Shown here piece after piece: positions 26,601 through 47,376 of a stretch of DNA of 64,000 nt. The notes beneath the pieces are model-generated. The model was not told where the DNA came from and ran no database searches. It saw only the letters and a list, made by a program, of their open reading frames with translations. Both the position numbers and the translations under genes were made by a program. The stretch lies in IMG/VR virus record IMGVR_UViG_3300013126_000029, positions 572-64,571 of that record. The stretch is one strand, 5' to 3'. This stretch comes from a virus (taxonomy: Duplodnaviria > Caudoviricetes). Positions within the stretch are counted from its first letter, which is position 1. Each line of letters begins with the position of its first letter.

Positions 26601-28580
26601 GCGCCGGAAGGATGCCAGGCGCCTGCCGGCCAGCCGGGCAAAGGCGGCGATCTCCACCGGGCCGGCGGCCTCGATGTCGGCGTGGGTGAGCGTCGCGGCG
26701 CGCGCGTACCGCTGCGCGGTGGTGAGCGCGTCGAGCGGATCGCCGTGTTGCAGGTCGGCGTCCAGCCGGGACCGGAGCGCCTGCGCGCGGGCGAGATCGG
26801 CCTGTTGGTCGGTCAGATCGGACCGCTCGGGCTGGTAGTCGCTGCCGCCGCGCATGACCTGGCGGCCGGCCAGGTCGCTCGCGCCGATGCCGCCGTCGCC
26901 ACTCGTGGCCGGAAGCTCTCCCAGGCCGGCGGCCTCGCGGGCGTCGGTGTCCTGGGCCAGCGTCTTGCGGGCGTTGGCGACGAGAACGCGGGCCTTGCGG
27001 TAGGCGTCGGCCACGGCCTCCTGGTGGGCCTGCTCCTGTCCGGCCTCCGGCGCCTTCTCGATCTGGTCGGCCAATTCGTGATGCCCGGCGTGGCGGAGCA
27101 CCTGGACGGCGGCGGCCCGGCGGCGCTGCTGGTGCTGGCCCTTGACCTCTTCGAGGGCGTCTTTCTGGCCCTGGTCTAGCTTGGCGCTCTCGCTGGTGCG
27201 GCGGGCCTTGCGGCGCTCGGCGGCGGCCTTGCGATACTCCTCGGGCGTCTTCAGGTTCAGGCGACGCAGGTTGAGCTTGCCCCCGGCGCCCCCGATGATG
27301 TGCCCCTGGCGGGGATTGGTCGGGTGGACGCGCACCAGGACCGGCACGCCCTTCTCGTCGTGCCCGCGGGGGTGGACGGTGATCCAGCGTTCGCCGGAGG
27401 GCGCGGTCTCGCCGAAGTCGAGCTTCGGGACGCGGCCGGGCTCCTTGAAACCCTCGCGGTACTCGGCGATGGCCTTCAACAACTCGGGGTGCACCTGGCC
27501 GGCCCGCACGGCGGCCAGCACCTCGGGCTGCATGATGCGGTCGAGCGCCGCGTCGGTCCGCCCGTGGCGGTTGTAGTGTTCGAGCACGGCGTCGCCGGCC
27601 TCGTGGGGCACGGTGTTGACCACCTGCATGATCTTGGCGGCCCGCGTGCCCTGGGCCCACTTCTCGGTCGTCGCCAGCCGGTCGAGGCTGCCGGCGGCGG
27701 GCTCCGTGTACCCGGCGGCGCCCGCGGCGGCGGCGGCCTCGTGTGGGCTGTCGAAGGTCTTGTGTGAACTGAAGCCGTAGGGGTCGTATTCGCTGTAGCG
27801 CCAGCGGCCCGGCTCGCTCGCATCGGGGATCACGACGGCGTGGTGATCGGACTTGGGGTGCTTGAACTCCAAATGACCCCGGTCGAAGTGCTCCAGGGTC
27901 GCGTTCATCTTCGCCGCGGTGTCGTGGTAGGGCGAATTGACCTCCTGCAACAACTCCGGGTCGTCGCCGGCCTCCTCGGACGTGAACCCAACGACGCGGG
28001 CTCGGCGGGTCTCTGGGTGCAAGTGGACGCCGCGCTGGTCCGCCTCGACACGCTTCCAGCGGTGGCTCATGGAGTCGAACATCAGGCCGGGGGCGTTGGC
28101 GATGGGCCCGGCCTTGGCGCCCTCGGCGAAGACCACGTTGACCCAGAAGTCCACGGCCTTCGCGGCCTCGACCTGGAAGCTCCCGGTGATGTGGTCGCTC
28201 ATCGCGGCCGGGTGGAACGGCGTGTGCTCGCCGAACGTCTGGTGCCAGGCGTAGCGGCGGCGCAGCTCGTGCTCGCCATCCTGGCGCGTCTCCTCGGCGG
28301 CGGCCTTGCGGTATGCCGTCCAGGTGTCGGGGTCGTGCGTCACGCGCCCGGCGGCCCATCGGAACAGGGTCGGCCGATCCACTCGGCGGCCCATGTCCTT
28401 GAGCTGGATCAACTTCTCCAGGTCCACGGTGCGCCGGTCGTTCTGATCCTTGACCCACCGGGTCGAGGTCCGACCTCGGCTATCGGTGCGCCGCTCCTGG
28501 TGGAGCGACCCACCATGAGACGGATCGCCGGATGGAACAGGATCGTGACCGCCGAAGATGTTGAGCTGCGCAGGCTGCAT
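20646..28580 (-). CDS. Giant polyvalent virion protein with C-terminal SNF2/SF2 helicase carrying a ParB/Srx-like insertion
   Basis: 2644 aa. Helicase motifs LGTGNGKT, VDEGH, MTGTP, SDAGATGANLQ, QRNARILR. ParB-like VTDGHRRLAAA lies between motifs Ib and II. N-terminal shared motifs and an RWITVHP..G.PVLV motif. Confidence 0.85.
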   Translation of the reverse strand: MQPAQLNIFGGHDPVPSGDPSHGGSLHQERRTDSRGRTSTRWVKDQNDRRTVDLEKLIQLKDMGRRVDRPTLFRWAAGRVTHDPDTWTAYRKAAAEETRQDGEHELRRRYAWHQTFGEHTPFHPAAMSDHITGSFQVEAAKAVDFWVNVVFAEGAKAGPIANAPGLMFDSMSHRWKRVEADQRGVHLHPETRRARVVGFTSEEAGDDPELLQEVNSPYHDTAAKMNATLEHFDRGHLEFKHPKSDHHAVVIPDASEPGRWRYSEYDPYGFSSHKTFDSPHEAAAAAGAAGYTEPAAGSLDRLATTEKWAQGTRAAKIMQVVNTVPHEAGDAVLEHYNRHGRTDAALDRIMQPEVLAAVRAGQVHPELLKAIAEYREGFKEPGRVPKLDFGETAPSGERWITVHPRGHDEKGVPVLVRVHPTNPRQGHIIGGAGGKLNLRRLNLKTPEEYRKAAAERRKARRTSESAKLDQGQKDALEEVKGQHQQRRRAAAVQVLRHAGHHELADQIEKAPEAGQEQAHQEAVADAYRKARVLVANARKTLAQDTDAREAAGLGELPATSGDGGIGASDLAGRQVMRGGSDYQPERSDLTDQQADLARAQALRSRLDADLQHGDPLDALTTAQRYARAATLTHADIEAAGPVEIAAFARLAGRRLASFRRLQEAVTEAGGDDTAPTMPDDAREAMEDMAAAVRGGGQDAIDAMADPKLNEAVRRGLTAAVDHGLMDPARERQMTARTEQAHREAAGAPELAQLNQEHVETLPARAIAMISHEAAQAIRRLRTAAPEDLRKLAEQVGDQVPAVKGAADALGEEALISGEATDAQRRAFLRQALASGVLTGDATPPKAADGPSLDVTDGQTARAIFEAGLKMRGLDKEARRRRNAIMAGDTAAATSQPWEAPRGGAIEPTQQLADHPPPEVVAAVQGEIRTQRSRAFLSHVEETYRDIGQMLEEDQDAAHADLARHMSRGTFDAVNHHAQEILRGSTIDRHVVDLLGSEGAAKLLAWQIRQTHPEQGEALTQAIGDYHLRLQDAHIPEAMDTSRDAYEAAHEVHQGMQDQGDLREWQALNKQRIDHLDQARQTLGRTLGFLETSAALHAAMMAPAANPIRVSAGPVEPTKLAGLARATGLDDGDFRIEHDGKNGWLTVEPAAFGKLVRPVDAEEVRLDRDMEAIRTGQRDDPKWRPAGFMERTDVRPEQRFQGEAPTNAQPFDYALAQHGDMHEAMGTYIAQRVHDGWRPVDIMLDLQNTGGHMAGIAAGVSEADLQGQQVQTWQELHPEPSKTAAAQDDGQARMPWDPEPEPGPNPAHAEWEAQRREIAAKGKLAAFHQAVEAHMPSRSDDKMAAVQLADSYAPHFTELARQHAERVGKVGTLHHQELDPELANDLAFRTLGRHPAAVGAWKPTEQLSHHERASLREAFYRYFHSRAGEMPEALRPETVMAKWTSEHPEPPREAAAEQGGFGFDMPTMGFGGAGFGTPSPEDVEKAEADARNANDRWEQSLVEHERAQAAVADPKAVFGRIAKAHAQQAQAAYRAVRERHVQEDHPSVQAAQAKHDAARAAADAAPEDEDKDKAAAAQGAAAALAAARDATVDEKHPEVAAARERHHHAASVAAGLDAPDEATPEDLRTAHQAYSQSAAQAQAATITLARAQDAREKAESAAFEARHHGASPQWKTWRQERDAAEHGARRAASRYEAPDWETYVASHGSAPQAYRALQDFVRSRFVQEFRTLYQDHARSPLQIGVQAVDGAAGHRLAFDPDWGDRVRRFRNSAGATVRTRGRGGQFSADPYKEARERYQAQARAMEQRQTTSTAETAPDPRRAPDLDERYTLGQQAEGQLAQIVSQHAGIIDPRQTFDARTADFSGPGAKRQRAIKAWQRSRKIGMFLGTGNGKTTVAFGTFSDLKGQGRVQRGVFSVPSIVQGQFGGEALAFVNPTHMRWHARPGESKAERMAAYADPTKHVVVVTHQALRDDVTDMVATHLGMSREQVAAHLTDGEVKAQAPEIDHLDKMRELAQVRPDQMVRQSDYDRAARNAYVGGASSRTTPAQMPSYPVGTWKVDDTFRGMYGSDVEHLQEFDPSDLVTTEQNVEGNTEGRGDDADRYAEWARSGEHGEPPPIQVVQAEDGSMRVTDGHRRLAAARKNGQKVKAWVSYAAHTGRLDSNGRPMVAGLTHELAIHRAHEAGDAPQAWHSQALPDLAEKMRQADVRPVQGAPARAVQPWSEDETDQHIRAALTAHDAHALLDFVAVDEGHVALNRKGKEDSHLARVIDSLGRLAKYCGYMTGTPVKNDTSELYDQLKKVAPHKYGDGPNKTSLAEFTRRYGTDPTTAGPALRAELRRRAFLTEAPMPFEPNYRTERIDPTPEQAEALDGAQRAYERVSAARRAGTVNVEAARALAPTAFASLAPTDEAGAREVAERVHRSPATFREAALNRHVNMHPQGAKLAHLDKLIGELRTQPLPRGARESAEDHKKRTAAGDTHRRAGVIFAHNHEAVAQIAAHLRAQGHRVETITGKDTGKAKTRKREAFDQGDHDILILSDAGATGANLQARASWIVNHDTPATYHTWKQRNARILRVGQRMGRPDVFTFQVDHPWEHDAAARMERKRGLHVPLYAEDDESQDEGGLAHLIRQHLHEAASPLAPPV

Positions 28581-28586
28581 GCGGTT

Positions 28587-28615
28587 GTTCTACCGCGCGC
28601 GGCCCGCTCGCTCAA
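28587..28615 (-). promoter_or_regulatory. Putative promoter TTGAGC-N17-TAGAAC (possibly leaderless transcript)
   Basis: -10 ends 6 nt before the ATG at 28580; no SD sequence is visible. Confidence 0.35.
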
Positions 28616-31600
28616 TCCGCGGCCTGCGCTCCCGGACCGAAACCGACGGCCACCCGGAAGCCTTTGGCGGCTTCGCGGTAGTGGGCGGGGTTCTCGGCCA
28701 GGTGATCCATGGCGATCTCCTGGGCGATCCCGCGGTCGTCGGTGTGCTCGGTCTCCTCCTCGGTGCCCTCGGCAAGGTCGTCCGGGTCGAAGTCCTCGGG
28801 CTCCATCTCGTCGGCGGGGCCCCCGTGCAGGCGGTCCTTGTGCGCCGCCTTGCCGGTCTCGTCGGGCGGGAGGAGCGGATCGGTGCCGGGGTGCGGGTTG
28901 CCGTGTTCGTCCACCTTGAGCTTGCTCTGCCAGTGCTCCGGGATTCGGCCGGCCGGAAAGAAGCGCCCGGTCAGGATCGGGTGCTTCATCGCGCCTTGCA
29001 GGAACTTCGCCACGGTGTCGCGGCGCTTCACCGGGTCCTGGTGCCAGGCGGCGTCCGCCGCGGCGGCCTCGGCCTCCTTGCGCTGGTGCTCGGCCGCTCG
29101 CTGAACCCGCTCGGCTTCGGCCTGGCGGGCGCGTTCCTGGGCCTGCTGTTGCGCCTGGCTCTCGGCTTCGGCGCGAGCCTTTTCGATGCCTGCCCGGTGG
29201 GCCTTGGTCTCCGCGCTGGGCTCGGCGTTGGCCTGGGCGGCGGTGTGCGGCATGAAACCGCCCTCGTCGTGCTGGTCGCGGATGAAGTGCAGGGTGTAGC
29301 CGTCGGCGTCGTTCTCGCTGCGCAGGACGCCGTGCTCGTGGCCGGTGTCGTCGCCCCAGGTGGCCACCGGGCGCCACGCTTGCTTGGCTGGGTGCCAGTA
29401 TTCGAGATCTTCCGGCGGGATGGCCTGCTTGGTGTAGCGGCTGCCCTCGACGTCCTCGTTGCCGACCGGGTCGACGACGGTGCGGCGTTTCGTCGCGCGG
29501 AGCATGACCGGGACGCGCTTCGTCAACGGCCCGTCGCCGTGCTGGTCTTCGAGCTGGTCGCCAACCTTGCCGTGCCACTCTTTCGCGGCCTGGAAATGGT
29601 GGGAGAGAAAGACCTTGCCCTGGCTGTGGTTGGCGTAGGCCCCGTGACCGTAGAGCCCTTCTCCGCTGCGAGGCTGCAAGCCCTTGCTGGCGATCTGCGG
29701 CATCGAAGCGTGGCTGGTGGTGTGAAACAGGTGCCCGGCCGGCTGGTCGTCGCGCGTCCAGCGGTGCGAGGTCGGGTCGAGGTGCAGGCCGGGGGCGTTG
29801 GCGATGGGCCCGGCCTTGGCGCCCTCGATGAGATCCCACCGGGCCGGGCCGGCGGCGGCGCCGGCCTCCCAACGGATCTTGTCGGGCTCGGCGTACCCCA
29901 GTCGATTGCCCGACCGGGCTCCGCCCCCGCCGGCTGCTTTGCCTTCGACCCGCGCCACTGGGCGCAGGCCCTTCTCGCGCAGGGCTCGATAGGTCGTGCC
30001 GTCCTCGGTGCTCAAGCTGTAGGTCACGAACAGGGCCGGGGCCTCGGCGTCGCCTCGTTTCGAGCGGTCGAGGAGGTCGATCATGCGCGCCGCGAGCTTC
30101 GACGACGCGCCCTTGGTGGTCCCGTCCGACGCGATCCGGGTCAACTCCAGGATGTTGCGCGGGTCCACCCGCCCGTTGCCCCAGCGCCCGGTCGGCGTGC
30201 CGGCGGTGGCGACGGCCACCAGGCGCCCGCCCCGCATGCACCCGACGGCGTAGATGAGCCCGCGCGGGTTCATCTCGGGCATCTGGCTGTGGTGCTCGGC
30301 GATGAACGCTCGGGCGGTGTCCAGCGGCACGTTCACCAGGCGGAGCTTGCCGGCGGGCGCGATGGCGTCGGCCAGGATCTCGCGCACGATGATCGCGGGG
30401 ATGAGCCCGCCGCGATCTGCGGACTCGGCCACAAGCGCAACGGCATCGGCTGCATCTTGCGGGCGCCACTCGGGCATGCCGATCAAGCCCGGAAGCTCGT
30501 CCGCCCGGATGGTCATGGGATCGTCCTCGAAGCTCTCCTCGGGCGCCCACTCGCGGGCGTGGCCGGCGTCGTGCAGGGCGCCCTCGATGAGGTGGACCTC
30601 CCCACCGTCGAAGATCCGTCCGACGTGCTCGACGATGTTCGCCGCTCGTCGTTCGGCTTCGGCCCGCTCGGGCGTGATTTCGGCGTGGCCGCGCTCGCCA
30701 GGGGCGGGCGCTCCGGCGTGGCCCATCGCGGCGTGCAGCGGCTTTGTTCTGACGTGCCGGTGCTCCGTCCGGCCCCGGCGGTCGGTGCGCGTTTCGAGGT
30801 GCAGGCGGCCACCGTGGTCGAGATCGGTGAGGAACGACAACTGCATCGCCTTGGCGCCCTCTCCGAACGCGATGCGGATCGCGCGCCGCTTGCGGACCGT
30901 GGTCGAGCCCGCGCCGGTGATGAAGCGGTGCCAGGCTCGGTCGAGGGCGACCTCGGCCCACGGCATCTCGTAGTTCTTCGGCGAGTCCTCTCCGCGGGTG
31001 TGCTGTTGCAACCACCCGTCCGGGTCGGCCACAAACGCGGCGGTGGCGTCCTTGTCCAGGTCCATCTCCGCGGCGATGCGGCGGCGCTCGGCGGCCGACG
31101 TCCACCCGCCCGGAAAGCCGATCTCGTCGGTGTAGTCGGCGAGGTCGGGATCGGTGGCGGCGAACGCCGATTCGGCGACGTCCTCGCGCACCTTGTCCTG
31201 GGCGGCGGTGAGCTTCCGCGGCGGTCCTTTCTCGGGACGGCCCACGGCGGCGGTGATGGCGACGCTGTCCAGGGTCACGCGGGCACCGGGGCTTGTTTCG
31301 GCGACGATGCGCTCGATGTCGGGGAAGCGCGTCGAGCGCGGGCCCACCCCGAGAAGATGGAGCGCCAGCGGGCGGCGGGGTCGCAGGAACGCGGCCAGAT
31401 CGGCGTCGCTGGTGGCGTCTTTCTTCATGGGGATCGCGGGCGTCCAGTCGGTGCCCAGAATGGCATCGACCCGCGCCGCGAACGCAGCCATCGACACGGC
31501 GCCTTTCTGGATCGGCACCAGGATGTGCGCGCCCTTGGCGCGGATGGCGCGCACCCGGTCGGCGTAGCGCGTGAGCCGGCGCAGGGTCTCCTCCTGGTCT

Positions 31601-34107
31601 GCGACCTTGTCCGGTGCGACGGCGTAGAGCTGGCCTCCCAGGGCGTCGGCCATGCGGTCGTACAGGTCGAGGCGGCGTGTCCATTCGGCGTGGGTGATGG
31701 GATCTTTGTCCACCGGCCCGTCCGGCGTGAACGCGATCTCTCCGAACGCCCCCGAGTCGAGAAAGAAGCGCACCAGGCGGCCGTCGGGAGTCGTCCGCCC
31801 GCGCAGGGCGGCGGCGGCCGTCTCGGCCTCGCGGTTCATCTCGCTCGCCGTCGCTCCGGGGTTGATCCCGATGTCGGCGAAACCGGCGATCTCTCCGGCG
31901 TGGTTCGACCCGCTGGCAAAGTATCCTCCCAGGTCGATCTTGAACGTCTCGGCCTCGTTGAACAGGGCGAGTTGCGCCGTCGCTGCCGGCCCGGCCGGCG
32001 TGGTCGTGACCCATCGGCGCTCGGTGCGCCCGCGCTTGTCCGTCCGCGTCTCGGCGTGGAGGCGGCCTCCGTGGGTCGGCTCGAAGAGACGCATCTGGTC
32101 GGCGGCCTTCCCGGCCTCCGGTGGCGAGTCGGCGGCGAGCGCGTCGGCCAGCTCGGTCAGCGCCAGATCGGCCCGGAACTTGTGCCCGACGCGACGTTCG
32201 AGGGCGACATACTCGCGGAACAACGCCGGGTTGGCCTGGGCGGCGATCTTCAGGTCGTCGCGGGTGGCGAAGACACAGAAGACGCAGGACAACCGGCGCA
32301 TGCCGAGGTCGTAGGCCCCGTGATAGGGCGTGCCGGCGTCGCGGATGCGCCGCCAGACGTCGCCCTCGGTCCAGTGGTGGATGGGCAACCACTCGTCCAC
32401 CTGCCGCTTGCCGTTGCTCGCCCCGTCGTCGCGCTCGAAGACGGGCATCTTGGCGCGGTTGCTGCTCTCGTCGGCTCGCAGGCCCATGCAGTTGAGAATG
32501 CGCACCGGCGCGCCCTTGCGGCCGATCTCGTCGGTCAGGCGCGTCATGAGGGTGCGGATGGGGCCGCGCTTGTGGTCGGAGGTGCAGTAGCGCGACGCGC
32601 TCGACGGCCAGGCGATCTCCTTGCCGAAGTCCACCGGATCGGCCTCGGCCTTGCCGTTCTTCAGCTTGCGTTCGGCGGCCTGCTTGAGCTTCCGGGCGCG
32701 TTCGTCGGGGGCCTGCGCTCCGTCCGCCTGCGCCGGCCCGATGAGCCCGGCCAGCGTCTCGGCGCTCGCCCCCGCGAGATCGCCCCAGGTCCGCACGCCG
32801 GACTTGGCGAGGGTCGCGACGTCGTGGCTGCGCTGCTGGAGGTCCACGGCCCGCTGGTCGATCTGCTCGATGAGGTCGCCCTTGGTCTTCTGTACGACCT
32901 CGAAGCGCAGGCCGTAGTGCCGGGCCTGCGCCTCGGCCAGCTCGCGGGTGCCCTCCCATTCCACGCGCCCCAGATCGGCGTGCACGACGACGACGCGGTC
33001 GAGCACGCCCTGGGCGCGGGCCTGGGCGACCACGTAGTCGAGCATTGCCTGGCTGTCCTTGCCGGCGGAACTGTTCACCAGGATCGTGTCGTAGTCGCGC
33101 AACGACGGCTCGGGATGAGCCGGGGCCGGGCTCGGGTCGTGGCCCAGTCCGTCAAGGCGGTTCTGGGCGCGCAGGCCCGGCGCCGTCGGCGCTGCGCCTC
33201 GCGCGCGGGGCGCCCGCTCGCCGATCTGCACCAGGGCCTCGGGCGGCGGCTTGATGCTTGGCGCAGTCGAGAAATTCGGGGCCGTTTTTGGGTCGATCTT
33301 GGCCTGCGGCGCGGTTCCGGTGCTCGAACTTTCGGCGGTAATCCACCGGGCCTCGCTGCGCCCGGTCGCGTCGGTCCTGGTCTCCTTGTGGAGCCGGCCA
33401 CCGTGGCTCGGATCGCCCATGAGGTCGAACATGCTCATGGTGTTCGTGTCGCGGCGGTCGATGGCTTTCCCACCCTCTTGCGTGTCGGCCAGCTCGGCGA
33501 TCTGCCGGCGCACATACTCCAGGCGCCGCCAGGCGTCGTCCAGGGACGAGTCGCGATCCACCGGCGGCGGCTCGGCGCTCTGGGCCTCGTGCAGGTTGAG
33601 GGGGCGGCCCCGCTGCTTGGCGTCGGCGAGGAGCGCCCCCAGGCGGGCCACCGGGATGCCCGTCACCTCGCCCTGGACGCCGCGCACGTCGTAGGAGGCC
33701 CGAAAAGTGCGCAGGGCCTCGCGGCGGGTGGCGAACCCCACCATGACCTTGTCCTCGTCGTAGCGGCCGGTCTTCGGGTCTTTGGCCCGGATGACCCACG
33801 CGGTCGGAGCGTCGCGCTCGGGCCCCACGAACACGTCCACGGCGTCGCCGTCCACGCCCAGGGTGCCCCGGAACTCGCCATAGTGCGCGGGCATCAGGAC
33901 GGCCCACGGGCTGCCGTCCTGGCCTCTTCCCTGGCGCACGGTGCCCTCGGGCGTCTCGACGTCAACCGTGGGCAGGCCGGGCACCTGGACGGTGCCGTGG
34001 TGGTGGTATTCCTGCGGCCGGCGGGACTCGGCGGGCGGGTCGAGCGGCAGGGCCTTGTGCCCCTCGCGGATGGCCTGGAGCTGAAGCAAGAGGCCGGCGG
34101 CGGTCAT
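28612..34107 (-). CDS. Polyvalent protein: inorganic-PPase-like + PAPS-reductase/DndC-like + TGT-like + GNAT (XF1762/Mom-like) + ART-like + DUF5661-like
   Basis: Start re-chosen at ATG 34107 (1831 aa). Motifs: HYGEFRGTLGVDGDAVDVFVG/DEDKVMVGF; NSSAGKDS/HADLG/YCTSDHK/GLRADES/RLSCVFC; FLDSGAF/APDKV/LHLLG; FIAEHH/LELTRIA/VTYSLSTEDG; LFHTT..IASKGL/VFLS/IPPEDL; EHTDDRGIAQEIAMDHLAE. Confidence 0.85.
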   Translation of the reverse strand: MTAAGLLLQLQAIREGHKALPLDPPAESRRPQEYHHHGTVQVPGLPTVDVETPEGTVRQGRGQDGSPWAVLMPAHYGEFRGTLGVDGDAVDVFVGPERDAPTAWVIRAKDPKTGRYDEDKVMVGFATRREALRTFRASYDVRGVQGEVTGIPVARLGALLADAKQRGRPLNLHEAQSAEPPPVDRDSSLDDAWRRLEYVRRQIAELADTQEGGKAIDRRDTNTMSMFDLMGDPSHGGRLHKETRTDATGRSEARWITAESSSTGTAPQAKIDPKTAPNFSTAPSIKPPPEALVQIGERAPRARGAAPTAPGLRAQNRLDGLGHDPSPAPAHPEPSLRDYDTILVNSSAGKDSQAMLDYVVAQARAQGVLDRVVVVHADLGRVEWEGTRELAEAQARHYGLRFEVVQKTKGDLIEQIDQRAVDLQQRSHDVATLAKSGVRTWGDLAGASAETLAGLIGPAQADGAQAPDERARKLKQAAERKLKNGKAEADPVDFGKEIAWPSSASRYCTSDHKRGPIRTLMTRLTDEIGRKGAPVRILNCMGLRADESSNRAKMPVFERDDGASNGKRQVDEWLPIHHWTEGDVWRRIRDAGTPYHGAYDLGMRRLSCVFCVFATRDDLKIAAQANPALFREYVALERRVGHKFRADLALTELADALAADSPPEAGKAADQMRLFEPTHGGRLHAETRTDKRGRTERRWVTTTPAGPAATAQLALFNEAETFKIDLGGYFASGSNHAGEIAGFADIGINPGATASEMNREAETAAAALRGRTTPDGRLVRFFLDSGAFGEIAFTPDGPVDKDPITHAEWTRRLDLYDRMADALGGQLYAVAPDKVADQEETLRRLTRYADRVRAIRAKGAHILVPIQKGAVSMAAFAARVDAILGTDWTPAIPMKKDATSDADLAAFLRPRRPLALHLLGVGPRSTRFPDIERIVAETSPGARVTLDSVAITAAVGRPEKGPPRKLTAAQDKVREDVAESAFAATDPDLADYTDEIGFPGGWTSAAERRRIAAEMDLDKDATAAFVADPDGWLQQHTRGEDSPKNYEMPWAEVALDRAWHRFITGAGSTTVRKRRAIRIAFGEGAKAMQLSFLTDLDHGGRLHLETRTDRRGRTEHRHVRTKPLHAAMGHAGAPAPGERGHAEITPERAEAERRAANIVEHVGRIFDGGEVHLIEGALHDAGHAREWAPEESFEDDPMTIRADELPGLIGMPEWRPQDAADAVALVAESADRGGLIPAIIVREILADAIAPAGKLRLVNVPLDTARAFIAEHHSQMPEMNPRGLIYAVGCMRGGRLVAVATAGTPTGRWGNGRVDPRNILELTRIASDGTTKGASSKLAARMIDLLDRSKRGDAEAPALFVTYSLSTEDGTTYRALREKGLRPVARVEGKAAGGGGARSGNRLGYAEPDKIRWEAGAAAGPARWDLIEGAKAGPIANAPGLHLDPTSHRWTRDDQPAGHLFHTTSHASMPQIASKGLQPRSGEGLYGHGAYANHSQGKVFLSHHFQAAKEWHGKVGDQLEDQHGDGPLTKRVPVMLRATKRRTVVDPVGNEDVEGSRYTKQAIPPEDLEYWHPAKQAWRPVATWGDDTGHEHGVLRSENDADGYTLHFIRDQHDEGGFMPHTAAQANAEPSAETKAHRAGIEKARAEAESQAQQQAQERARQAEAERVQRAAEHQRKEAEAAAADAAWHQDPVKRRDTVAKFLQGAMKHPILTGRFFPAGRIPEHWQSKLKVDEHGNPHPGTDPLLPPDETGKAAHKDRLHGGPADEMEPEDFDPDDLAEGTEEETEHTDDRGIAQEIAMDHLAENPAHYREAAKGFRVAVGFGPGAQAAD

Positions 34108-40400: not shown

Positions 40401-42328
40401 TCCTGCCCGACGTAGTAGGTCCGGGTCACCCCGTCCTTGCCGGTGATCTTGCGGGCCTGGAGGCGCCCGCCGTCGGTCGGGTCGCGGGTGATGTCCTGGC
40501 TGCTGGGGGCGACCGGATCGGCATGAGGGCCGGCGGGGGCCGGCTGCCCGACCGACGCGGTCAACCGCTCGGCCTCGGCGCTGGCCTGTTCGGCGGCGGG
40601 CCGGCGGGCCGGGTCGCTCATGGCGGCGAGCCACGCATCCGCCGCCTTCTTGTGAGCGGCCATGGCGGCCATGCGTTCGGCACCGTGGGCGTTGCCCTCC
40701 TGTGAGGAGATCGTCGCCTGGTCCTTTGCGGACGTCGTGTGCGCCATGAACCGGGCGTGGGCGGCGCGGGCCTGCTCCTTCGCGTCTTCGGACGACGGCT
40801 GCGGCTGCGGCGCCGCCCTGGCCTGCATGGCTGCCGCGTGCTCCTTGTCCAGCGCGTCGAGCTTCTTTCTCGCCTCCTCGACGTGTCCCTGCGCTCCGAT
40901 CCGGTAGCCGGCGGAGTGCGCGGTTCGCGCTTCCCCAGACCAGAACGCGATCTGTCGCTTGGTCTCTTTGATGTCGTCCTGAATGGCGTCGGTGGAGCGG
41001 GTGGGCGGCGGGTGGGCGGCGGGAGACTCCTCGGTCGCTTCGCTCTCGTTCGTCTCGTCGCCTTCATCGTCCGACTGGCCGGTGAAGGCGCGCGCGGCGT
41101 CCTCGCTCTTGAAGATGAAACCGGGGATCGCCCCGTTGCCCTTGAAGCTGCTGTAGCGTCCCCCCAGGCGCTTCGCCTTGGTGTTGATCTCCTGGTAGGT
41201 CTCGCTGCTGACCCGGTCCTGGAGCTGCACGGTCCACAACGCCTCGCCGGTCTTGGTGTGGCGGTTGGGGATGATCTTCGCTCCGCTCATGGCCTCGTCG
41301 GCCCCGCCCTCCTTGGGCAGGCGGGCGGTGCGCGTGTCCTCGGACCCGTTCCTGTTCGTGCTCGCTCGCTCGCTGGGGGGGCCGCTCTTGCGCCAGGCGC
41401 TCCAACGATAGCCGCGCGGCGTCTTGTCCTGGCCGCGAGAGAACCACTGGCCGTCCTCTCGGCGCGACCACTGGAGCTGCGTCTGGTAGTCCATCGTGTA
41501 GCCGTGGAAGATCGTCCCGGCGGGGTATTCCTCGGGTGTCTTCCGGCGCGGCGTGTCTTCCGGCGCGGCGGCTTCGGGCGTTGCAGTCGTTGTCGGCTCG
41601 GCCGGCGGCGCGGGCGCGGGCATTTCATCGTTCGCTGCCGGGCTCGGTGCGGCCGGCGTTTCAGTCGTCGTCGGATCGGTCCACGACGGCTTGCGCGCGC
41701 TCGGCGGCGTGGGGTCTTCGCCGGGCTGCACCGGGCGCAGATCGCCCGGTTCGACCTCGGTGCGCATGCCGGCCAGGACGACAAACGGCCGGCCGTCGTC
41801 CTCTCCGGCGAACGTGACCGGGCTCCAACCGCTGCCACTGGAGTCCTTGAGCATGACCCGGTCGCCCCGCTGGAAGGTCGGTCGCGCCGGGGCCTGCTGG
41901 TTGGCGTGGTGGGCCTGGGCGGCGCTGAGGAGCTGGTCGCGCCGCTCGACGTCCTCCGGGGTTGCCTCTGGACGTTTCGCCTGCTGGTGCGCCTCCACCA
42001 GGGCGCTCGCGACCTGGCCGGGGCTCGCCTGGCTGGCCCATCCGAACAGATCGGGCCCCAGGTCCGGCTTGGCCTTGGCCTTGCGGGGCGCCTTGGCGGG
42101 CTGGGTCGGCAGGACGTGTACGGTCTGCTGGTGCCCGGCTTTGTTCACGATCTGGCGCTCGATGAGGCGCCCGCCGTGACTGGCGTCTCCAGGCGCAAAC
42201 AGGTCGAGTTGGCCGGATGGCGTCGGGGTGGGTCGAGGCGTTGGCTTCGCAGGTGGGGCCGACCCACTTCCGAAAAGCGCCAGTTGTTCAGCCTTGAACC
42301 CGTCGTCGAGGATGTGGATCAGAAACAT
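34424..42328 (-). CDS. DarB-like protein: N6-adenine DNA methyltransferase + SNF2 helicase (P1 DarB architecture)
   Basis: Start re-chosen at ATG 42328. MTase QYFT, VLEPACGSG, GVEID, ITNAPF; helicase FDVGLGKT, FVDEAHNF, LLTATP, MGEGVNLQ, QREGRAVRQGN. Confidence 0.9.
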   Translation of the reverse strand: MFLIHILDDGFKAEQLALFGSGSAPPAKPTPRPTPTPSGQLDLFAPGDASHGGRLIERQIVNKAGHQQTVHVLPTQPAKAPRKAKAKPDLGPDLFGWASQASPGQVASALVEAHQQAKRPEATPEDVERRDQLLSAAQAHHANQQAPARPTFQRGDRVMLKDSSGSGWSPVTFAGEDDGRPFVVLAGMRTEVEPGDLRPVQPGEDPTPPSARKPSWTDPTTTETPAAPSPAANDEMPAPAPPAEPTTTATPEAAAPEDTPRRKTPEEYPAGTIFHGYTMDYQTQLQWSRREDGQWFSRGQDKTPRGYRWSAWRKSGPPSERASTNRNGSEDTRTARLPKEGGADEAMSGAKIIPNRHTKTGEALWTVQLQDRVSSETYQEINTKAKRLGGRYSSFKGNGAIPGFIFKSEDAARAFTGQSDDEGDETNESEATEESPAAHPPPTRSTDAIQDDIKETKRQIAFWSGEARTAHSAGYRIGAQGHVEEARKKLDALDKEHAAAMQARAAPQPQPSSEDAKEQARAAHARFMAHTTSAKDQATISSQEGNAHGAERMAAMAAHKKAADAWLAAMSDPARRPAAEQASAEAERLTASVGQPAPAGPHADPVAPSSQDITRDPTDGGRLQARKITGKDGVTRTYYVGQDVEGDLAAKLAADPGFRQMATVNDRDGLVLGIQKQIEDLAADEATARTDALGHADEHAKGWGMLYFDGLDKLGRDAFLNEVASKLAQTVREAEPAKLPTREAEPPQRPDPVAEPARTVEYLESAPAGAQVTLAHDDGTQVWQKGEAGWRPEGAPQGPPVSDETLARAAQAGAAEIVDGPPPAEAAPSRSLQESLENFHQRLHLTDMEAKGDWTPARRAALVTKLLDHLWSDETGPTGEPTEEMQAAMSQAAEAEADRIIAGTKTPKVEPAQASSGPKASTHSFGRDLTPKQRKEANSAAVALIQKAVGQGRELTQKEMDQVALYSGRGGIGDSLNQYFTRPDIAASMWDLLAHHGLPTNAKVLEPACGSGVFMQTAPEGVTMTGVEIDPEVALVASSLHGARHTIHAQGFEHFAVARERGVGDRFDAVITNAPFCTRTGDGARIHKPEYTSADAYFVDTALDQVKEGGLVAMIVHRGVMSNDGMQDFRHRLGERAELVDAFRLPVEAFKHADTTVVSDVIILRKRPEVVATALARGGEQVARAVGTHDEAFIFGRWFDDKPDRVLGTVGKDWRGGDLVEGNADACAPLIRARGTASWAQSQAGQAVTAEEMAAHADQRVRDSLETAKSAVAEPPSVRGSQTVIAGKTYILTPDPSGELRWRRLDSIDDARELMHSGDAALKSAGELALRYGDLRSAMERGDYLRARGIRRKLQKDLNAWVENYGVPSKHPEIQALANQDANIAHLVSAVNADKSMADVLTTDPVIPPAARGDVAVRVTSVAEAASHLATHNPGAPITVAQLREAFPAAADDDLVVAGLVQSGEYVDARGAFGVEGDAPAVLHADDYASGDLFAVRDHEHEMAASEDEATRQRAEARLALVQRHIDERWRPLDQVEVSVRSGWIPPHVIEAWLNTPGTLSEWQSDFSDFKVTEAGGVYTVSFLNKNGQRGKHSGDGFTYSGAADSAPFRNVLRYMNRLPLHGERAREQAESDDEKFRSWLASSDLRNDVEEVYNRRFTGQVPRRLNSTPMKIDGLTFELHPYHYEQIRWNTDRRGGIVAFDVGLGKTFNTIATARQMRISGQARKVAVTCPKSVIINWTKEIEKLHPGAKVLVVGATSKEKPKKTWHDPQVPEYVAEADSDEALTRKLADLAANDYDMVLFTYEAQARIPVRDENVTRFEGDDFWARRASKLSARESTVAVSLDSREKKLAKALASYQAERAKLAFGVKQSIIHWEDLGIDAMFVDEAHNFANLGSPRSRGGEVKMMGSSSDNVKRSHDLQLKAALVRERRKPDETDEAHQQRMSQNGADGLGVNGNGVFLLTATPAKNSPMDVYHLMLQATPQVWRQVGVRNLEEFIDRYVDIEERTIINTNQQAEMAQCAVGFKNMNELREVMERGLRRRTAKEVNLKLPQVEREEHLVDMTPQQHQAFRDIRDEFERRKLDKDPRVAAAATFWLLHQLNAAGTDLSLLAEEHPEHAGEWRHSPKYHEAVGTIVKNLKAGRGGQVVFIDRNDSHTALKKLLVEAGIPEKEIEILNAKTAADADKRYAISERFNKGTTRIVIGNTGTMGEGVNLQQNTSDLHHLDLPWSPGKYHQREGRAVRQGNKYDRVKIHTYFSKRSFDSYRHAILSGKQGWVANLYSGSDYAENTEEGEKFSPEELQIMLADDPEEARKTFEANRGARVAALQDAARAKAMRDWQGVIKRRSALAKMPDKTSHAARRLAENIRLDTERLKRVTELPKPLRQALDTNVPCVAVPTTGAILKVGDVIHPKGDKVTDSGHVITDVDPVRGSVTVRPFGPRRRSWSDNPTISAALLPEYVTHTGPETEADAYRPEIKAKLDSAKKYPSLAGGALAEMRDWPKDIRREFEPEARQIANLSAADAKHGHVFVRRGDAVAAVRAGTPEAKDAVGLLPWGEDREAIVRGLVAHLRAEGKKPVYTHGRHGSMSNTGRYEYQPSYEWKNAHNRVVGGQGEDHGLVREAIRRINSEDRK

Positions 42329-42382: not shown

Positions 42383-42586
42383 CTACCCTCGTTTCTGGCG
42401 CCCGGAAAACGCATGGTGGGCCGCGATGGCCTGTTGCTGGCTGACCTGCCGCCCTTCATGCTCGACGTCCAGGACGTTTGCACCGATGGGGACGGTGCGC
42501 CCGTCGGCGTGCATGCCCATCACGCGGTTCTGGATGACTGCCAGGACGTCGCCGTCGGGCATCACGTACCACTTGCGGGGGTCCAT
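42383..42586 (-). CDS. Small protein coupled to the RelA/SpoT gene (candidate immunity/antitoxin)
   Basis: 67 aa MDPRKWYVMPDGD...; TGATG coupling and AAGGAG RBS. Confidence 0.6.
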   Translation of the reverse strand: MDPRKWYVMPDGDVLAVIQNRVMGMHADGRTVPIGANVLDVEHEGRQVSQQQAIAAHHAFSGRQKRG

Positions 42587-43575
42587 CAGCTCTCCTTGTG
42601 CAGGCGGCGCATCGCGGCCAACCAGACCAGTTTGGACGCCTTGTTGTAGTGCTCGTGGTTGCCGTTGAACCCGGTCTGTCGAGTGACCTCGTAGATCCCG
42701 TGGCTTTGCCCCTTTGGAGCGAGCATCGCCCGCGGGTGGAATTGCAATTCCGCGCGAACCGGGCCCTTCGAGGTCGGGATGTAGACGTCGGCGTGCACCG
42801 CGGCGTATCCGGTGTCCGTCGGCTGCGCCCACTTGTTGTCCACGACCATGTCTCCGCCCATCGCCCTGAAGCGGGCCTGGGCGGCGCGCACGACGTCGCC
42901 CAGCTGCTCGGGCGTATCGACGACGATGGAGCCGCGCACGGCGTCGCCGACGCCCTTGTGCGCCAACTCGCGCATGGCGGCCTCGTCCACCGGCAGACCT
43001 CGCTCCCGGCGGGCCTGGGCCTTCTTCTCGATCTTGCGGCGGATGCCGTCCACGGCCTTCGTGGCGTGTTTGTCGTTCTCGCCCATCGTGGCCTCGGCGC
43101 CGGGCACGCTCTTGGCGATGCCGTGCAGGGCCTCGACCCACCGCGGCTTGGCCTCGGCGGCGACGGCGGCGACCTCATCGGCGGTGAAGGCGTGGTCGTT
43201 GCCCCAGGTGGCGATCTTCAGGTGCCCGTCGCCGGTGTCTCCCACGTCTCCGATCCGCTGGGCGATGGCGGCGCGATGGCGGTCCCACGCTTCGTGCGGG
43301 TGCTCGTGTGGCACGTAGAGCGGGGCGCCGTGGATGTCGGGGGCCTCGGCTAGGTAAGCGCCGCCCCCGGCGTGCGCGTGCGCGGCGTTGTGCAGCTCGG
43401 CCGGGTGAAGGTCGCCCGACTTCGGGGCCATGTGGTCGCCTCCCATCGACGGGCGCGTCCAGCGGCGCGTCTTTCGACCGGCGCGGTCGGTGATGGTGGT
43501 GAGAACGAGACCGGGGCGGTTGGCGATTCCGCCGGTGTCCTTCAAACCCTCGCCGAAGATGACGGTGATCTGCAT
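42586..43575 (-). CDS. RelA/SpoT-family small alarmone synthetase-like protein
   Basis: Start re-chosen at ATG 43575 (GAGGAG RBS). Synthetase motifs TKAVDGIRRKI, GDAVRGSIVV, TGYAAVH, AELQFH, HGIYE; no HD hydrolase domain. Confidence 0.8.
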   Translation of the reverse strand: MQITVIFGEGLKDTGGIANRPGLVLTTITDRAGRKTRRWTRPSMGGDHMAPKSGDLHPAELHNAAHAHAGGGAYLAEAPDIHGAPLYVPHEHPHEAWDRHRAAIAQRIGDVGDTGDGHLKIATWGNDHAFTADEVAAVAAEAKPRWVEALHGIAKSVPGAEATMGENDKHATKAVDGIRRKIEKKAQARRERGLPVDEAAMRELAHKGVGDAVRGSIVVDTPEQLGDVVRAAQARFRAMGGDMVVDNKWAQPTDTGYAAVHADVYIPTSKGPVRAELQFHPRAMLAPKGQSHGIYEVTRQTGFNGNHEHYNKASKLVWLAAMRRLHKES

Positions 43576-43698
43576 GTGCTCCTCACAGGGCGCGGGCCCG
43601 GTTGAATGCTTCCTCCGCTCGGCGGCGGGTCTCGGCGGGGTCTTCTCCACCCTCGCCCGTGCGGCGCACCGAATAGCCTCCCCCGGCGGCCGACGTGT

Positions 43699-46600: not shown

Positions 46601-47376
46601 CCGTGCATCTCGTGCTCGTCCGGCTCGACTCCGAAGCCCTCCGGGTCGGCGTGCTGCTCGGCTACCTCGTCGAGGTGGCTCGCAACCGAACCGGCGACCG
46701 GGAACGTCTTGGAGACGTTGCCGGCGGCGGCCGGCGGCGGCGTCGCGACCCACCGCTTTTCGGTGCGCCCGCGGGCGTCGGTGCGGGTCTCCTGGTGGAG
46801 GGCGCCGCCGTGTGACGGGTCGCCGGCCGGTTTGCCCCCGTCCCCGCCGGGCGTGAGCATGTCGAACATGGACAAGGTCTGCTTGTCCTTCTTGTCGATA
46901 GCTTTCCAACCCTCTTGGGATGGCTGCACCGCGTCGAGAAACCGCTGCGCGTGGGCGTGAGTCGCCAGGTGTGTCCACTGTGTCCGAAAACCGTGCTCCC
47001 CCTCGACCTCGCCGGGCTGCCCATGCTCCGGGTAGAGGTCGTGGGTGCCCATAAGGCGCCCGTCGTCGTCCACCTCGATGCGCCCGATCTTGCCGTCGCC
47101 GTGCCGGAAGTCGGTAGGGTCGGCGTAGTGAGACGGACTCTCCGCCTGGATGCCCTTGTGCTGCAACTCTCCGATCATCACGCCGCGCCGCTGGTGGGCT
47201 CGCCCCACGGCGCCCCACGGCGCGCCGGCCTGCCCCGCCCGCTTCCATCTGTGGGACAACGGATCAAGCATGAGGCCCGGCCGGTTGGCGATGGGCCCGG
47301 CCTTGGCGGCCTCGGGCTCTGCCAGGTTGGTGCGGATCAGGTTGACCTTGTCGAGGATGGCGCGAGCGATGCTCAT
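43699..47376 (-). CDS. Large His/Ala-rich helical internal virion protein with C-terminal RMF-like motif
   Basis: Start re-chosen at ATG 47376 (GGGAG RBS, overlaps the MuF stop). Many AHxxAAxAH helices; both shared motifs present; ends GYSAG...KNPH...WAAGYAQG. Confidence 0.75.
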   Translation of the reverse strand: MSIARAILDKVNLIRTNLAEPEAAKAGPIANRPGLMLDPLSHRWKRAGQAGAPWGAVGRAHQRRGVMIGELQHKGIQAESPSHYADPTDFRHGDGKIGRIEVDDDGRLMGTHDLYPEHGQPGEVEGEHGFRTQWTHLATHAHAQRFLDAVQPSQEGWKAIDKKDKQTLSMFDMLTPGGDGGKPAGDPSHGGALHQETRTDARGRTEKRWVATPPPAAAGNVSKTFPVAGSVASHLDEVAEQHADPEGFGVEPDEHEMHGHILAHYDRAKSKLRAPDDPRMADRMADYFSEQANAADELHGKKEGEGAHAEGRAHLRAARSAMSTLAGTLREHATGLRKAAMPKPPPTAQEPAQGTSGHWGHMLAARHTRIADAHRDAMQAAGGPSTPEGRHHMTAQRAHRAAADAAKAAATGNGSESEAKTATTRADTETKKAEDGIAKLKKAPKPAEPWQKHAEMQQSHARAIEAHRELANTARGRGDHLAERAHETAADAHHAAASAHGIAFASSSKRESPNTSERDQATIDRNKAAVASHHAADASLRANGQRDAAGLGPDRGISEGQAARIVQQTRPGSHEAKAQAHTSHAAFHAKQAEGRADGDPVGDKHREAALAHTKAARMHSRVGATPGAEAAADRLTTEAHARSRDVKAVADRIQGREADRRAADPSYRVAQETKEPPAPAMLRDRATPEGIAQAKQGALYTTKDGNVAYRKVGPGKTDWHRQKPSSHAPGEWTDVDDPPSKHAFQSVMRLVDSEGGHIHTPAPEPAPAAAAAAAEPDITPQQAQIKAHEHDRKGEQFQSSHGGHGAGNAHKQAAYAWQQVATEMRRGDASPQRIKDAHALSEKAQKEEAQVPARQAARAKAPVHEHLAKLHRQAADEATGGGERAAHQDAARAQDEAARAAYQHAASTLDPNDVHGGDHYEIHANAANRQSEHASRLTSQRTGGQWPPAPKAETKPEPASYAIDTGAGRKSVQGHRVGVYGVHDEAPEHGGLATVTHIPSGRSIAQGYAPDDALKLAQHLHDKAEGAHGSAAFGTTFDREHPDSQRMMAALQNASVKPRPDRLAGQIRNKAQDHRARQGAADKHEARAAEHRQKLQAAREGGASLSVTGGHANAEKAHTAAAEAFRSNASNAASKAQEAKDTSERVAKYEREDAMSRAHKAANESGYSAGHGDETLRRSASGQGTAPQKNPHKQGTPEHDHWAAGYAQGRGDAGGAAREEVRWSR

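What the first reader, a model, noticed from the sequence alone, without database searches (positions are those of the whole stretch)
28450..46915. Repeated ~25-aa motif HGGxLxxExRTDxxGRxxxRW in front of unrelated domains
Copies seen: GDPSHGGSLHQERRTDSRGRTSTRWV (~28450-28530), DLDHGGRLHLETRTDRRGRTEHRHV (~30750-30825), EPTHGGRLHAETRTDKRGRTERRWV (~32005-32085), GDPSHGGRLHKETRTDATGRSEARWI (~33340-33420) and GDPSHGGALHQETRTDARGRTEKRWV (~46745-46825). Diverged copies occur in the DarB-like protein: GDASHGGRLIERQIVNKAGHQQTVHV (~42110-42195) and DPTDGGRLQARKITGKDGVTRTYYV (~40410-40485). The pattern suggests a basic beta-hairpin. In the 1831-aa protein one copy precedes each of the PAPS-reductase-like, TGT-like and GNAT-like domains. 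Inference: a DNA-binding or portal/tail-threading signal that couples each released enzyme to the ejected genome.
Basis: partly seen in the sequence, partly recalled or inferred. Interest (0 to 1): 0.82.

Follow-up and report, generated by a model that had tools for sequence, protein, structure and literature searches.

The report
Hairpin header on phage capsid cargo
A short conserved beta-hairpin peptide sits just behind probable head-protease cutting sites in front of unrelated enzymes in four giant proteins of a phage, so it is probably a shared label kept on each enzyme the phage packs into its capsid; what the label binds is still unknown.

Summary
Seven copies lie at the stated coordinates, all on the minus strand, in four giant ORFs between the portal and major-capsid genes of a 64.6-kb phage. 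No copy appeared in 1000 shuffles.

What the motif is:
- It is the core of a larger cassette: E-G-x-K|A site, often a Q-L-x-L-F-like peptide, the hairpin, then a variable linker and an enzyme module.
- The same E-G-x-K|A site occurs in the capsid protein N-terminus, the scaffold-like protein, the portal C-terminus and a protein with a T4 gp21-like fold. It is therefore most likely the prohead-protease cut site.
- The hairpin would then be the new N-terminal header of each released module.
- AlphaFold2 gives a confident autonomous hairpin.

Distribution and evolution:
- An exhaustive profile search found about 40 further carrier proteins with polyvalent-protein domains.
- No Pfam model and no PDB chain matched the motif.
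- A related provirus lacks one module, and the crossover lies inside the tag.

Limits:
- Cutting, packaging and the tag's partner are untested.
- DNA or capsid anchoring for co-ejection is my best guess.
- Unchecked notes of this scan describe similar cassettes in at least 21 other genomes.

The parts
28452..28517 (-). Tag copy at the extreme N-terminus (residues 22-43) of the 2644-aa helicase-containing protein (20646-28580). No cleavage site lies upstream. A Q-L-N-I-F peptide sits at residues 5-9.
33340..33405 (-). Tag copy 1 of the 1831-aa protein (28612-34107). It lies between the InPase domain and the PAPS_reduct domain. The E-G-G-K-A site is at 33463-33477.
32008..32073 (-). The E-A-G-K-A site is at 32104-32118, and Q-M-R-L-F lies between site and hairpin.
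30751..30816 (-). The E-G-A-K-A site is at 30847-30861. This copy was folded.
46747..46812 (-). Tag copy in the 1225-aa protein (43699-47376). The E-G-W-K-A site is at 46900-46914.
42113..42178 (-). Diverged tag copy near the N-terminus of the DarB-like methylase-helicase protein (34424-42328). It follows a 12-residue leader ending in G-F-K|A (42290-42304) and two Q-L-x-L-F peptides.
40409..40474 (-). Second diverged copy in the DarB-like protein. No lysine site lies within 40 residues upstream. It continues into a conserved domain.
43453..43539 (-). Hybrid eighth copy in the 329-aa protein (42586-43575). It has a 12-residue leader, an E-G-L-K|D site (43537-43551), then a GIANRPGL start joined to a TD..GR...RW end. 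It links the two tag types.
28050..28118 (-). Short second tag type (GPIANxPGL..SHRWxR) directly behind an E-G-A-K|A site. The other copies are at 29752-29820 and 47239-47307.
18727..19764 (-). 345-aa probable prohead protease. In 8 homologues it has invariant D-x-N-H and S-x-G-G-P. Two conserved E-G-x-K sites lie in its C-terminal part.
17729..17746 (-). E-Q-G-L-K|A site at residues 23-28 of the major capsid protein (16322-17812). It is identical in the related provirus.
17853..18716 (-). 287-aa scaffold-like protein (assigned by position and composition only). It carries three E-G-x-K|A sites and one E-A-G-K|C site, all kept in the relative.
48634..50484 (-). Portal protein with an E-G-G-K|A site 24 residues before its C-terminus. 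The relative has E-A-G-K|S at the same place.

Best explanation
The motif is the beta-hairpin core of a junction cassette in capsid-packaged polyvalent cargo proteins of a temperate-type myophage.

The cassette reads: a short leader or the preceding module; an E-G-x-K|A site; often a Q-L-x-L-F-like peptide; the roughly 22-residue basic hairpin; a variable, fast-diverging linker; then an enzyme module.

Inferred steps:
1. The giant proteins are co-assembled into the prohead.
2. The phage's gp21/assemblin-fold protease (345 aa, 18727-19764) cuts after the lysine, as it would in the capsid protein, scaffold, portal and itself.
3. Every enzyme module is thereby released inside the head with the hairpin at or near its new N-terminus.
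4. The hairpin is a retained header, not a removed targeting peptide.

My committed guess for the header's job is as follows. It is a small basic beta-ribbon that holds each freed module on a shared partner inside the head. That partner is most likely the packaged DNA or the DNA-lined inner capsid surface. The modules are thus kept in the head and leave with the genome.

A second, shown effect is that the repeated cassette serves as the joint at which modules are gained or lost by recombination.

Shown: the anatomy, the conservation, the hairpin prediction, the distribution and the recombination joint. Inferred: cleavage, packaging, and what the hairpin binds.
For: (1) Position relative to sites.
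- Of the 7 copies, 5 have an [E/D]-G/A-x-K|A site 12-39 residues upstream, 1 is at the protein's N-terminus and 1 has none.
- The hybrid copy and the three short tags follow a site directly.

(2) Enrichment of the site.
- E-G-x-K-A occurs 12 times in the 10 head-block proteins (10,859 aa) and 0 times in 18 other proteins (6,746 aa).
- Shuffles give a mean of 0.37 and a maximum of 4 in 1000.
- A further E-Q-G-L-K|A site sits at residues 23-28 of the capsid protein.

(3) Conservation of the sites.
- The sites in the capsid protein, scaffold-like protein, protease and portal are kept in a collinear provirus of about 80-85% DNA identity.
- They are also kept across 8 protease homologues down to 32% identity.

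(4) The protease. The 345-aa protein has an invariant His and Ser. Its model's best PDB matches are T4 gp21 (probability 0.99, E 8.7e-3), followed by herpesvirus proteases.

(5) The fold. AlphaFold2 on 16 cassette copies gives strands at residues 30-36 and 42-48 with pLDDT 82-90. The site and the Q-L-x-L-F region have low confidence, that is, they look flexible.

(6) Selection. Copies differ at synonymous sites. Between the two phages the tag is kept while the following linker, and even the following module, differ.

(7) Wider distribution.
- A profile search of 1.84 billion representatives gave 50 hits at E<=1e-3.
- 41 carriers scanned with Pfam hold InPase, Topoisom_I, NUDIX, LPD1, ART, SNF2, methylase, PBECR3, RadC and Mom domains.
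- 23 of 51 tags start within the first 65 residues. Site-like motifs occur upstream in 17 of 51 (random positions: mean 4.1, maximum 10).

(8) Genomic context elsewhere.
- A low-GC viral contig has a tagged 1222-aa protein directly upstream of a protease-scaffold fusion and a capsid protein of the same PHROG family as the window's.
- Another contig has the tagged ORF directly after a MuF-type minor head protein.

(9) Basic character. The tag keeps it (R in high-GC carriers, K in low-GC carriers) between phages whose capsid proteins share only about 20% identity. This fits a generic partner such as DNA.

(10) Precedent. P1 DarA-Hdf sit on the inner capsid surface, touch DNA and are gone after ejection (abstract of PMC12810830).
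Against: - No proteomics, N-terminal sequencing or virion data exist for this phage or its relatives, so cleavage and packaging are inferred from motifs alone.
- One copy (40409-40474) has no site upstream and runs into a conserved domain.
- In the low-GC contig the tag lies near the C-terminus, followed by only about 90 residues, so 'in front of an enzyme' is not universal.
- My strict site expression was found upstream of only 17 of 51 tags in other carriers.
- The protease fold match is below the E 0.001 mark, and the model is poor overall (mean pLDDT 55.9).
- Nothing tested here speaks to DNA or capsid binding. A two-stranded hairpin with hydrophobic residues on both faces could equally dock on a protein.
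- Two of the 15 rows of the search profile came from a doubtful family (DUF2201_N/VWA proteins). This may have drawn in one hit (P0015).
Confidence: 0.45

Rival explanations
1. Capsid-loading signal. Before cleavage, the hairpins bind a prohead component (scaffold, inner face of the capsid protein, portal, or the protein encoded after the portal). Several hairpins per polyprotein raise avidity. After maturation they are vestigial.
For: - T4 internal proteins and P1 DarB are loaded by N-terminal signals. The first 30 residues of DarB suffice (PMC9024508, passages read).
- Tags lie at or near N-termini in 23 of 51 cases.
- The tag co-occurs with one head-module type (capsid protein phrog_752 in both the window and the low-GC contig).
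- The 2644-aa protein has the tag at its very N-terminus with no leader.
Against: - The hairpin lies on the retained side of the predicted cut, unlike the T4 signal.
- Separate short hydrophobic leaders that would be removed exist on five of the proteins and look like better loading signals.
- One signal per polypeptide would suffice, yet each module carries its own and keeps it through module exchange.
- The P7 DarB N-terminus does not match the tag profile (-1.5 bits).
Confidence: 0.2
2. Host-directed address. After injection, the N-terminal Q-L-x-L-F peptide docks in the host sliding-clamp pocket and the hairpin adds DNA or clamp contacts. This concentrates the injected DNA-modifying and anti-restriction enzymes on DNA.
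For: - Five exact Q-[LM]-x-[LMI]-F peptides occur in the cargo proteins, against a mean of 0.075 (maximum 2) in 1000 shuffles. All lie next to tags or cut sites.
- The same kind of peptide lies within 40 residues upstream of 18 of 51 tags in other carriers (random positions: mean 1.6, maximum 5).
- The DarB-like protein of the window, its provirus relative and the cultured Bordetella phage PHB04 would all begin, after the predicted cut, with A-(E)-Q-L-A-L-F.
- The likeness to the clamp-binding consensus QL[SD]LF is recalled knowledge, not a tool result.
Against: - Low-GC carriers mostly lack the peptide but keep the hairpin.
- Two of the seven window copies have M/L-S-M-F without the glutamine.
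- The peptide could instead be part of the protease's primed-side recognition or of a loading signal.
- No binding evidence of any kind exists.
Confidence: 0.12
3. Protease exosite or substrate-presentation element. The hairpin is recognised by the prohead protease, or it holds the adjacent site in an accessible loop. Junctions in bulky cargo would then be cut efficiently.
For: - The hairpin is always close to a site. In low-GC carriers it starts one to a few residues after the lysine.
- The site region is predicted to be flexible next to a rigid hairpin.
Against: - Sites in the capsid protein, scaffold, portal and protease work (if at all) without a hairpin.
- The spacing between site and hairpin varies from 1 to 39 residues.
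- The N-terminal copy in the 2644-aa protein has no site.
Confidence: 0.08
4. The repeat matters mainly as DNA: a recombination joint for shuffling modules, with no function for the peptide itself.
For: The related provirus lacks one module. Its junction tag is 74-100% identical to window copy 2 up to the second strand of the hairpin, and 73-87% identical to copy 3 from there on.
Against: - Copies within the genome share only 59-73% DNA identity, with many synonymous differences, whereas the peptide is kept.
- The peptide is conserved from about 70% GC to low-GC phages with wholly different codons.
Confidence: 0.03

Closest known systems
Phage-type polyvalent proteins (Iyer, Burroughs, Anand, de Souza, Aravind 2017, PMC5512222; outline, LPD and genomic-context sections and keyword passages read)
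   Same: - Giant proteins combine unrelated enzymes (InPase, PAPS reductase, methylase-SNF2 helicase).
- They are encoded among virion genes and are proposed to be injected with the DNA.
- Other carriers of the tag hold the same domain repertoire.
   Different: - The paper proposes processing mainly by zincin-like metallopeptidase domains. In the text I searched it has no word 'linker' or 'clamp', and no junction hairpin.
- Here the junctions carry a conserved site-plus-hairpin cassette, and the cutter is probably the prohead protease.
- Its supplementary domain alignments (LPD1-40) could not be seen, so I cannot exclude that one of them covers the motif. No Pfam LPD model matched it.
T4 capsid targeting sequence of internal proteins IPI-III and Alt, removed by the gp21 prohead protease (as summarised in PMC9024508; otherwise recalled)
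   Same: - Short N-terminal peptides on proteins that are packed in the head and injected.
- The same protease processes capsid, scaffold and cargo.
   Different: - The T4 signal is upstream of the cut and is removed. This hairpin is downstream and would be retained.
- It recurs inside polyproteins.
- The cut follows lysine rather than glutamate.
Phage P1 Dar system: DarB N-terminal packaging signal (PMC9024508) and the DarA-Hdf inner-capsid, DNA-contacting pairs (PMC12810830, abstract)
   Same: - One tagged protein is a DarB-like methylase-helicase (27% identity to P7 DarB over 38% of the query).
- Cargo is loaded through its N-terminus.
- Dar proteins touch both capsid and DNA and leave with the DNA.
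   Different: - There is no sequence likeness between the DarB N-terminus and the tag.
- P1 uses separate helper proteins, and its capsid protein is cut after glutamate.
Bordetella phage vB_BbrM_PHB04 (MF663786.1), the nearest named phage for the DarB-like protein
   Same: - Same gene order: portal, RelA/SpoT-like, DarB-like, helicase, protease, scaffold, capsid.
- Its cargo proteins start with a short hydrophobic leader, K|A, Q-L-A-L-F, and a small ..K-D-G-T-V-V.. hairpin-like stretch.
   Different: - Its hairpin is of another sequence type and does not match the tag profile (best 12.9 bits, in another protein).
- The enzymes are separate genes rather than polyproteins.

Membership tests
Polyvalent proteins (Iyer et al. 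2017) | Several domains of disparate biochemical activity in one polypeptide | tested here: met
   Pfam finds InPase plus PAPS_reduct in the 1831-aa protein, and N6_Mtase plus SNF2-rel_dom plus Helicase_C in the 2634-aa protein.
Polyvalent proteins (Iyer et al. 2017) | Phage versions are encoded among late or virion genes | tested here: met
   All four proteins lie between the portal (48634-50484) and the capsid gene (16322-17812).
Polyvalent proteins (Iyer et al. 2017) | Delivered into the host with the DNA | not testable with these tools
   No virion proteomics or infection data are available.
T4-type capsid targeting sequence | N-terminal peptide removed by the prohead protease after loading | tested here: not met
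   The hairpin lies downstream of the predicted cut in 5 of 7 copies and in the hybrid copy. Cleavage itself is inferred.
T4-type capsid targeting sequence | Necessary and sufficient for encapsidation of a passenger | not testable with these tools
   This needs a reporter-fusion experiment.
P1 DarB packaging signal | Sequence likeness to the first 30 residues of DarB | tested here: not met
   The tag profile scores -1.5 bits or less on P7 DarB, and not at its N-terminus.
Bacterial sliding-clamp-binding motif (for the neighbouring Q-L-x-L-F peptide) | Pentapeptide Q-[LM]-x-[LM]-F in a flexible region | tested here: met
   There are 5 matches, against a shuffle mean of 0.075. The region has low pLDDT. 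The consensus itself is recalled.
Bacterial sliding-clamp-binding motif (for the neighbouring Q-L-x-L-F peptide) | Binds the hydrophobic pocket of the beta clamp | tested here: inconclusive
   One complex prediction gave no verdict (see Tried and rejected). There is no experimental test.
Any Pfam family or solved structure covering the hairpin | Profile match over the motif | tested here: not met
   - No Pfam hit over the motif at E<=10 in 2 window segments and 7 short carriers.
- 0 PDB chains at E<=10 with two profiles.
Prohead protease of the T4 gp21 / HK97 / herpesvirus assemblin fold (for the 345-aa protein) | Fold likeness and conserved His and Ser | tested here: inconclusive
   - The top three Foldseek hits are T4 gp21 (probability 0.99, but E 8.7e-3 and TM 0.30/0.56), followed by EBV and KSHV proteases.
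- H118 and S187 are invariant in 8 homologues.
- No Pfam, NCBIfam or PHROG hit.

The most novel reading that the evidence does not exclude
The cassette is a two-stage address. The prohead protease exposes, on every cargo module, an N-terminal sliding-clamp-docking peptide followed by a DNA-gripping beta-ribbon. After injection, the whole toolkit of DNA-modifying and anti-restriction enzymes is then assembled on clamp-bearing or incoming DNA. This would be a modular, protease-armed delivery tag that phages swap between enzymes by recombination inside the tag.
Probability: 0.12. Interest if true: 0.85.

Novelty: new variant of a known kind. Interest (0 to 1): 0.6.

Why it matters
About 25 kb of this 64.6-kb genome encodes proteins that appear to be carried in the head.

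A conserved, portable cassette of cut site plus retained hairpin would explain three things:
- how such giant multi-enzyme proteins are turned into separate working enzymes;
- how new modules are plugged in, since one module exchange has its crossover inside the tag;
- how each piece stays with the genome.

The cassette would give annotators a marker for virion-delivered effectors among thousands of 'hypothetical' phage proteins. If it is sufficient for loading or co-ejection, it would also be a handle for packing chosen proteins into phage capsids.

I did not find it in Pfam, in the PDB, or in the papers my searches returned.

Tried and rejected
Rejected readings:
- The motif is part of the neighbouring enzyme. 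Rejected because it precedes many unrelated families and the linkers after it diverge.
- The copies are recent DNA duplications. Rejected because of the synonymous differences.

Doubtful matches, not counted as members:
- Seven viral contigs (L003-L009) share only the first 9-13 residues, in DUF2201_N/VWA proteins.
- Metagenome locus L017 matches 16 residues, next to FabG-like genes.

Nine of the 50 exhaustive hits (P0018, P0030, P0032, P0036, P0038, P0040, P0041, P0042, P0056) were set aside as low-complexity repeats. I judged this from their many short matched stretches.

Searches that found little or nothing:
- The word-indexed protein search gave only 5 proteins, 2 of them the window's own.
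- P0034 in viral contigs: none.
- The low-GC tag gave 1 viral locus and 2 metagenome loci.
- tblastn of a window tag against 50,697 phage records and 72,556 plasmids, and of the low-GC tag against the phage records: no match at E<=1. These were single short queries of limited reach.
- blastn of the head region against phages: none.
- The protein atlas gave no usable hit.
- Pfam, NCBIfam and PDB sequence searches did not name the 345-aa, 287-aa, 452-aa or 329-aa proteins.

Literature searches returned no paper describing the cassette. Supplements were closed.

Complex prediction: a 40-residue piece of the DarB-like protein's tag was folded with the Pseudomonas aeruginosa clamp from Swiss-Prot as a stand-in. 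It scored 0.54, but the control with the clamp replaced by an unrelated protein scored 0.58. The verdict was 'no answer'. It counts neither for nor against binding.

Full report
**What the window is.** The window is nearly all of a 64,571-base single-contig virus record of about 70% G+C. Almost all genes are on the minus strand. PHROG profiles name a tail sheath, a major head protein (phrog_752), a portal and SbcCD-like genes. Four very long ORFs fill the space between portal (48634-50484) and capsid gene (16322-17812): 43699-47376 (1225 aa), 34424-42328 (2634 aa), 28612-34107 (1831 aa) and 20646-28580 (2644 aa). A 329-aa ORF lies at 42586-43575. Pfam finds InPase and PAPS_reduct in the 1831-aa protein, N6_Mtase, SNF2 and Helicase_C in the 2634-aa protein, and Helicase_C in the 2644-aa protein. 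These are polyvalent proteins in the sense of Iyer et al. 2017 (PMC5512222). The 2634-aa protein is DarB-like by tblastn: 27% identity to P7 darB, and 34% to a Bordetella phage PHB04 protein.

**The observation.**
- The expression used finds nothing else in six frames, and nothing in 1000 shuffles.
- Five copies are close (62-81% identity) and two, in the DarB-like protein, are diverged.
- Their DNA differs at many synonymous positions, so the peptide is what is conserved.
- A weak eighth copy in the 329-aa protein joins the start of a second recurrent tag (GPIANxPGL) to the end of this one. The two tags are therefore relatives.

**What surrounds it.**
- E-G-x-K-A occurs 12 times in the ten head-block proteins and never in 18 other proteins. 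Shuffles give a mean of 0.37.
- It also occurs three times in the scaffold-like 287-aa protein, twice near the C-terminus of the 345-aa protein upstream of it, and 24 residues from the portal's C-terminus. A variant, E-Q-G-L-K-A, is at residues 23-28 of the capsid protein.
- These places are kept in a collinear provirus record (G001; 80-85% DNA identity, capsid protein 90% identical). They are also kept in protease homologues down to 32% identity.
- The 345-aa protein has an invariant His and Ser. Its AlphaFold2 model (mean pLDDT 55.9) best matches T4 gp21, then herpesvirus proteases. The Foldseek E-value of 8.7e-3 is below the tool's mark.
- I therefore read E-G-x-K|A as the prohead protease's site. 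No cleavage has been measured.
- Several head-block proteins begin with short leaders that end in such a site, most of them hydrophobic and 12 to 27 residues long.

**The hairpin itself.** AlphaFold2 on 16 copies of the cassette gives two strands (residues 30-36 and 42-48 of the 55 folded) at pLDDT 82-90. The site and the peptide between site and hairpin have low confidence. Between site and hairpin there is often a Q-[LM]-x-[LMI]-F peptide: five in the cargo proteins, against 0.075 expected.

**Relatives.**
- The exhaustive profile search found 50 proteins at E<=1e-3 among 1.84 billion representatives. I set nine aside as repeats, and one belongs to a doubtful family that was in my query.
- The rest include low-GC versions of the same hairpin.
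- Pfam on 41 carriers shows the polyvalent repertoire: InPase 4, Topoisom_I 4, NUDIX 4, LPD1 3, ADPrib_exo_Tox 3, SNF2 3, N6_Mtase 3, ART-PolyVal 2, and single cases of C5 methylase, PBECR3, RadC and Mom.
- No model covers the motif, and no PDB chain matches it.
- Among 51 tags in 40 carriers, 23 start within 65 residues of the N-terminus. Site-like motifs lie upstream in 17 of 51 and Q-L-x-L-F-like motifs in 18 of 51, well above random positions.
- In a low-GC viral contig, the tagged 1222-aa protein directly precedes a protease-scaffold fusion and a phrog_752 capsid protein whose N-terminus has an L-L-K|A-M site. There the tag lies near the C-terminus.
- In a metagenome contig, the tagged ORF follows a MuF-type minor head protein.
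- The cultured Bordetella phage PHB04 has the same gene order and leaders (hydrophobic strand, K|A, Q-L-A-L-F, a small D-G-T hairpin-like stretch) but another hairpin type.
- No match was found in 50,697 phage or 72,556 plasmid records with single short queries.

**Module exchange.** The provirus's homologue of the 1831-aa protein lacks the module between tag copies 2 and 3. Its single junction tag matches copy 2 up to the second hairpin strand and copy 3 from there on, in DNA. After tag copy 1 the two phages carry different sequence. In the 1225-aa protein, the window has an extra module bounded by two sites. The cassette is thus the joint of module gain and loss.

**Mechanism.**
- Best supported: the polyproteins are loaded into the prohead and cut at E-G-x-K|A, and each module keeps the hairpin as a header.
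- What the header does is not shown.
- I favour anchoring to the packaged DNA or the DNA-lined inner capsid wall, so that the modules leave with the genome. The reasons are these:
  - The tag is needed per module.
  - It is retained.
  - It stays basic across very different phages.
  - It is much better conserved than the capsid protein.
  - P1's DarA-Hdf gives a precedent.
- Rivals are a loading signal, a host-directed address using the clamp-like peptide, a protease exosite, and a purely DNA-level joint.

**Earlier notes of this scan**. These are unchecked AI notes. They describe the same site, second tag and leader in this genome, and similar cut-site-plus-hairpin cassettes in at least 21 other genomes. 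They agree with my reading but are not independent evidence.

**Novelty.** Processing of head cargo by the prohead protease, capsid targeting peptides and polyvalent proteins are all known. A retained, conserved hairpin header coupled to the cut site at module joints is not in Pfam, the PDB or the papers my five searches returned.

Noticed in passing
window 17729-17746, 17853-18716, 18727-19764, 48634-50484 and the module joints of the four giant ORFs: E-G-x-K|A recurs 12 times in the head-block proteins and 0 times elsewhere. It is conserved in a relative and is a probable prohead-protease cut site.
   Followed up: yes
window 28554-28568, 42272-42286, 42197-42211, 32083-32097, 31960-31974 (approximate): Q-[LM]-x-[LMI]-F peptides resembling the bacterial sliding-clamp-binding motif lie next to the tags or cut sites. 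One further copy (Q-L-A-L-F) follows tag copy 2 in the 1831-aa protein.
   Followed up: partly
L001 11573-11740 against window 30727-32148: The related provirus lacks the module between tag copies 2 and 3. The DNA crossover lies inside the hairpin-coding sequence.
   Followed up: yes
window 28612-28660 and 48634-48705; C-termini of P0006 and P0019: After the last predicted cut site, the 1831-aa protein and the portal end in a short hydrophobic strand-like tail, similar to the N-terminal leaders of the cargo proteins. Its role is unknown.
   Followed up: no
L018 (MF663786.1, Bordetella phage PHB04) 5005-19651: This cultured phage has the same head-block layout. Its cargo genes are separate, and each starts with a hydrophobic leader, K|A, and a different small hairpin-like stretch. 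It is a possible experimental model.
   Followed up: partly
L003-L009 and P0015: DUF2201_N/VWA proteins of other viral contigs begin with a stretch sharing the first 9-13 residues of the tag. This is either chance or a very distant relative.
   Followed up: partly
window 28615-28790 (C-terminal part of the 1831-aa protein): An acidic C-terminal stretch gives a weak DUF5661 hit (E 1.7e-4, below the Pfam cut-off). It recurs in P0006 and P0009.
   Followed up: no
L015 9765-9971; P0049; P0033: In low-GC carriers the hairpin is followed by a conserved helical tail. Upstream there is a conserved helical segment ending in the lysine site. This suggests a larger linker unit in those phages.
   Followed up: no
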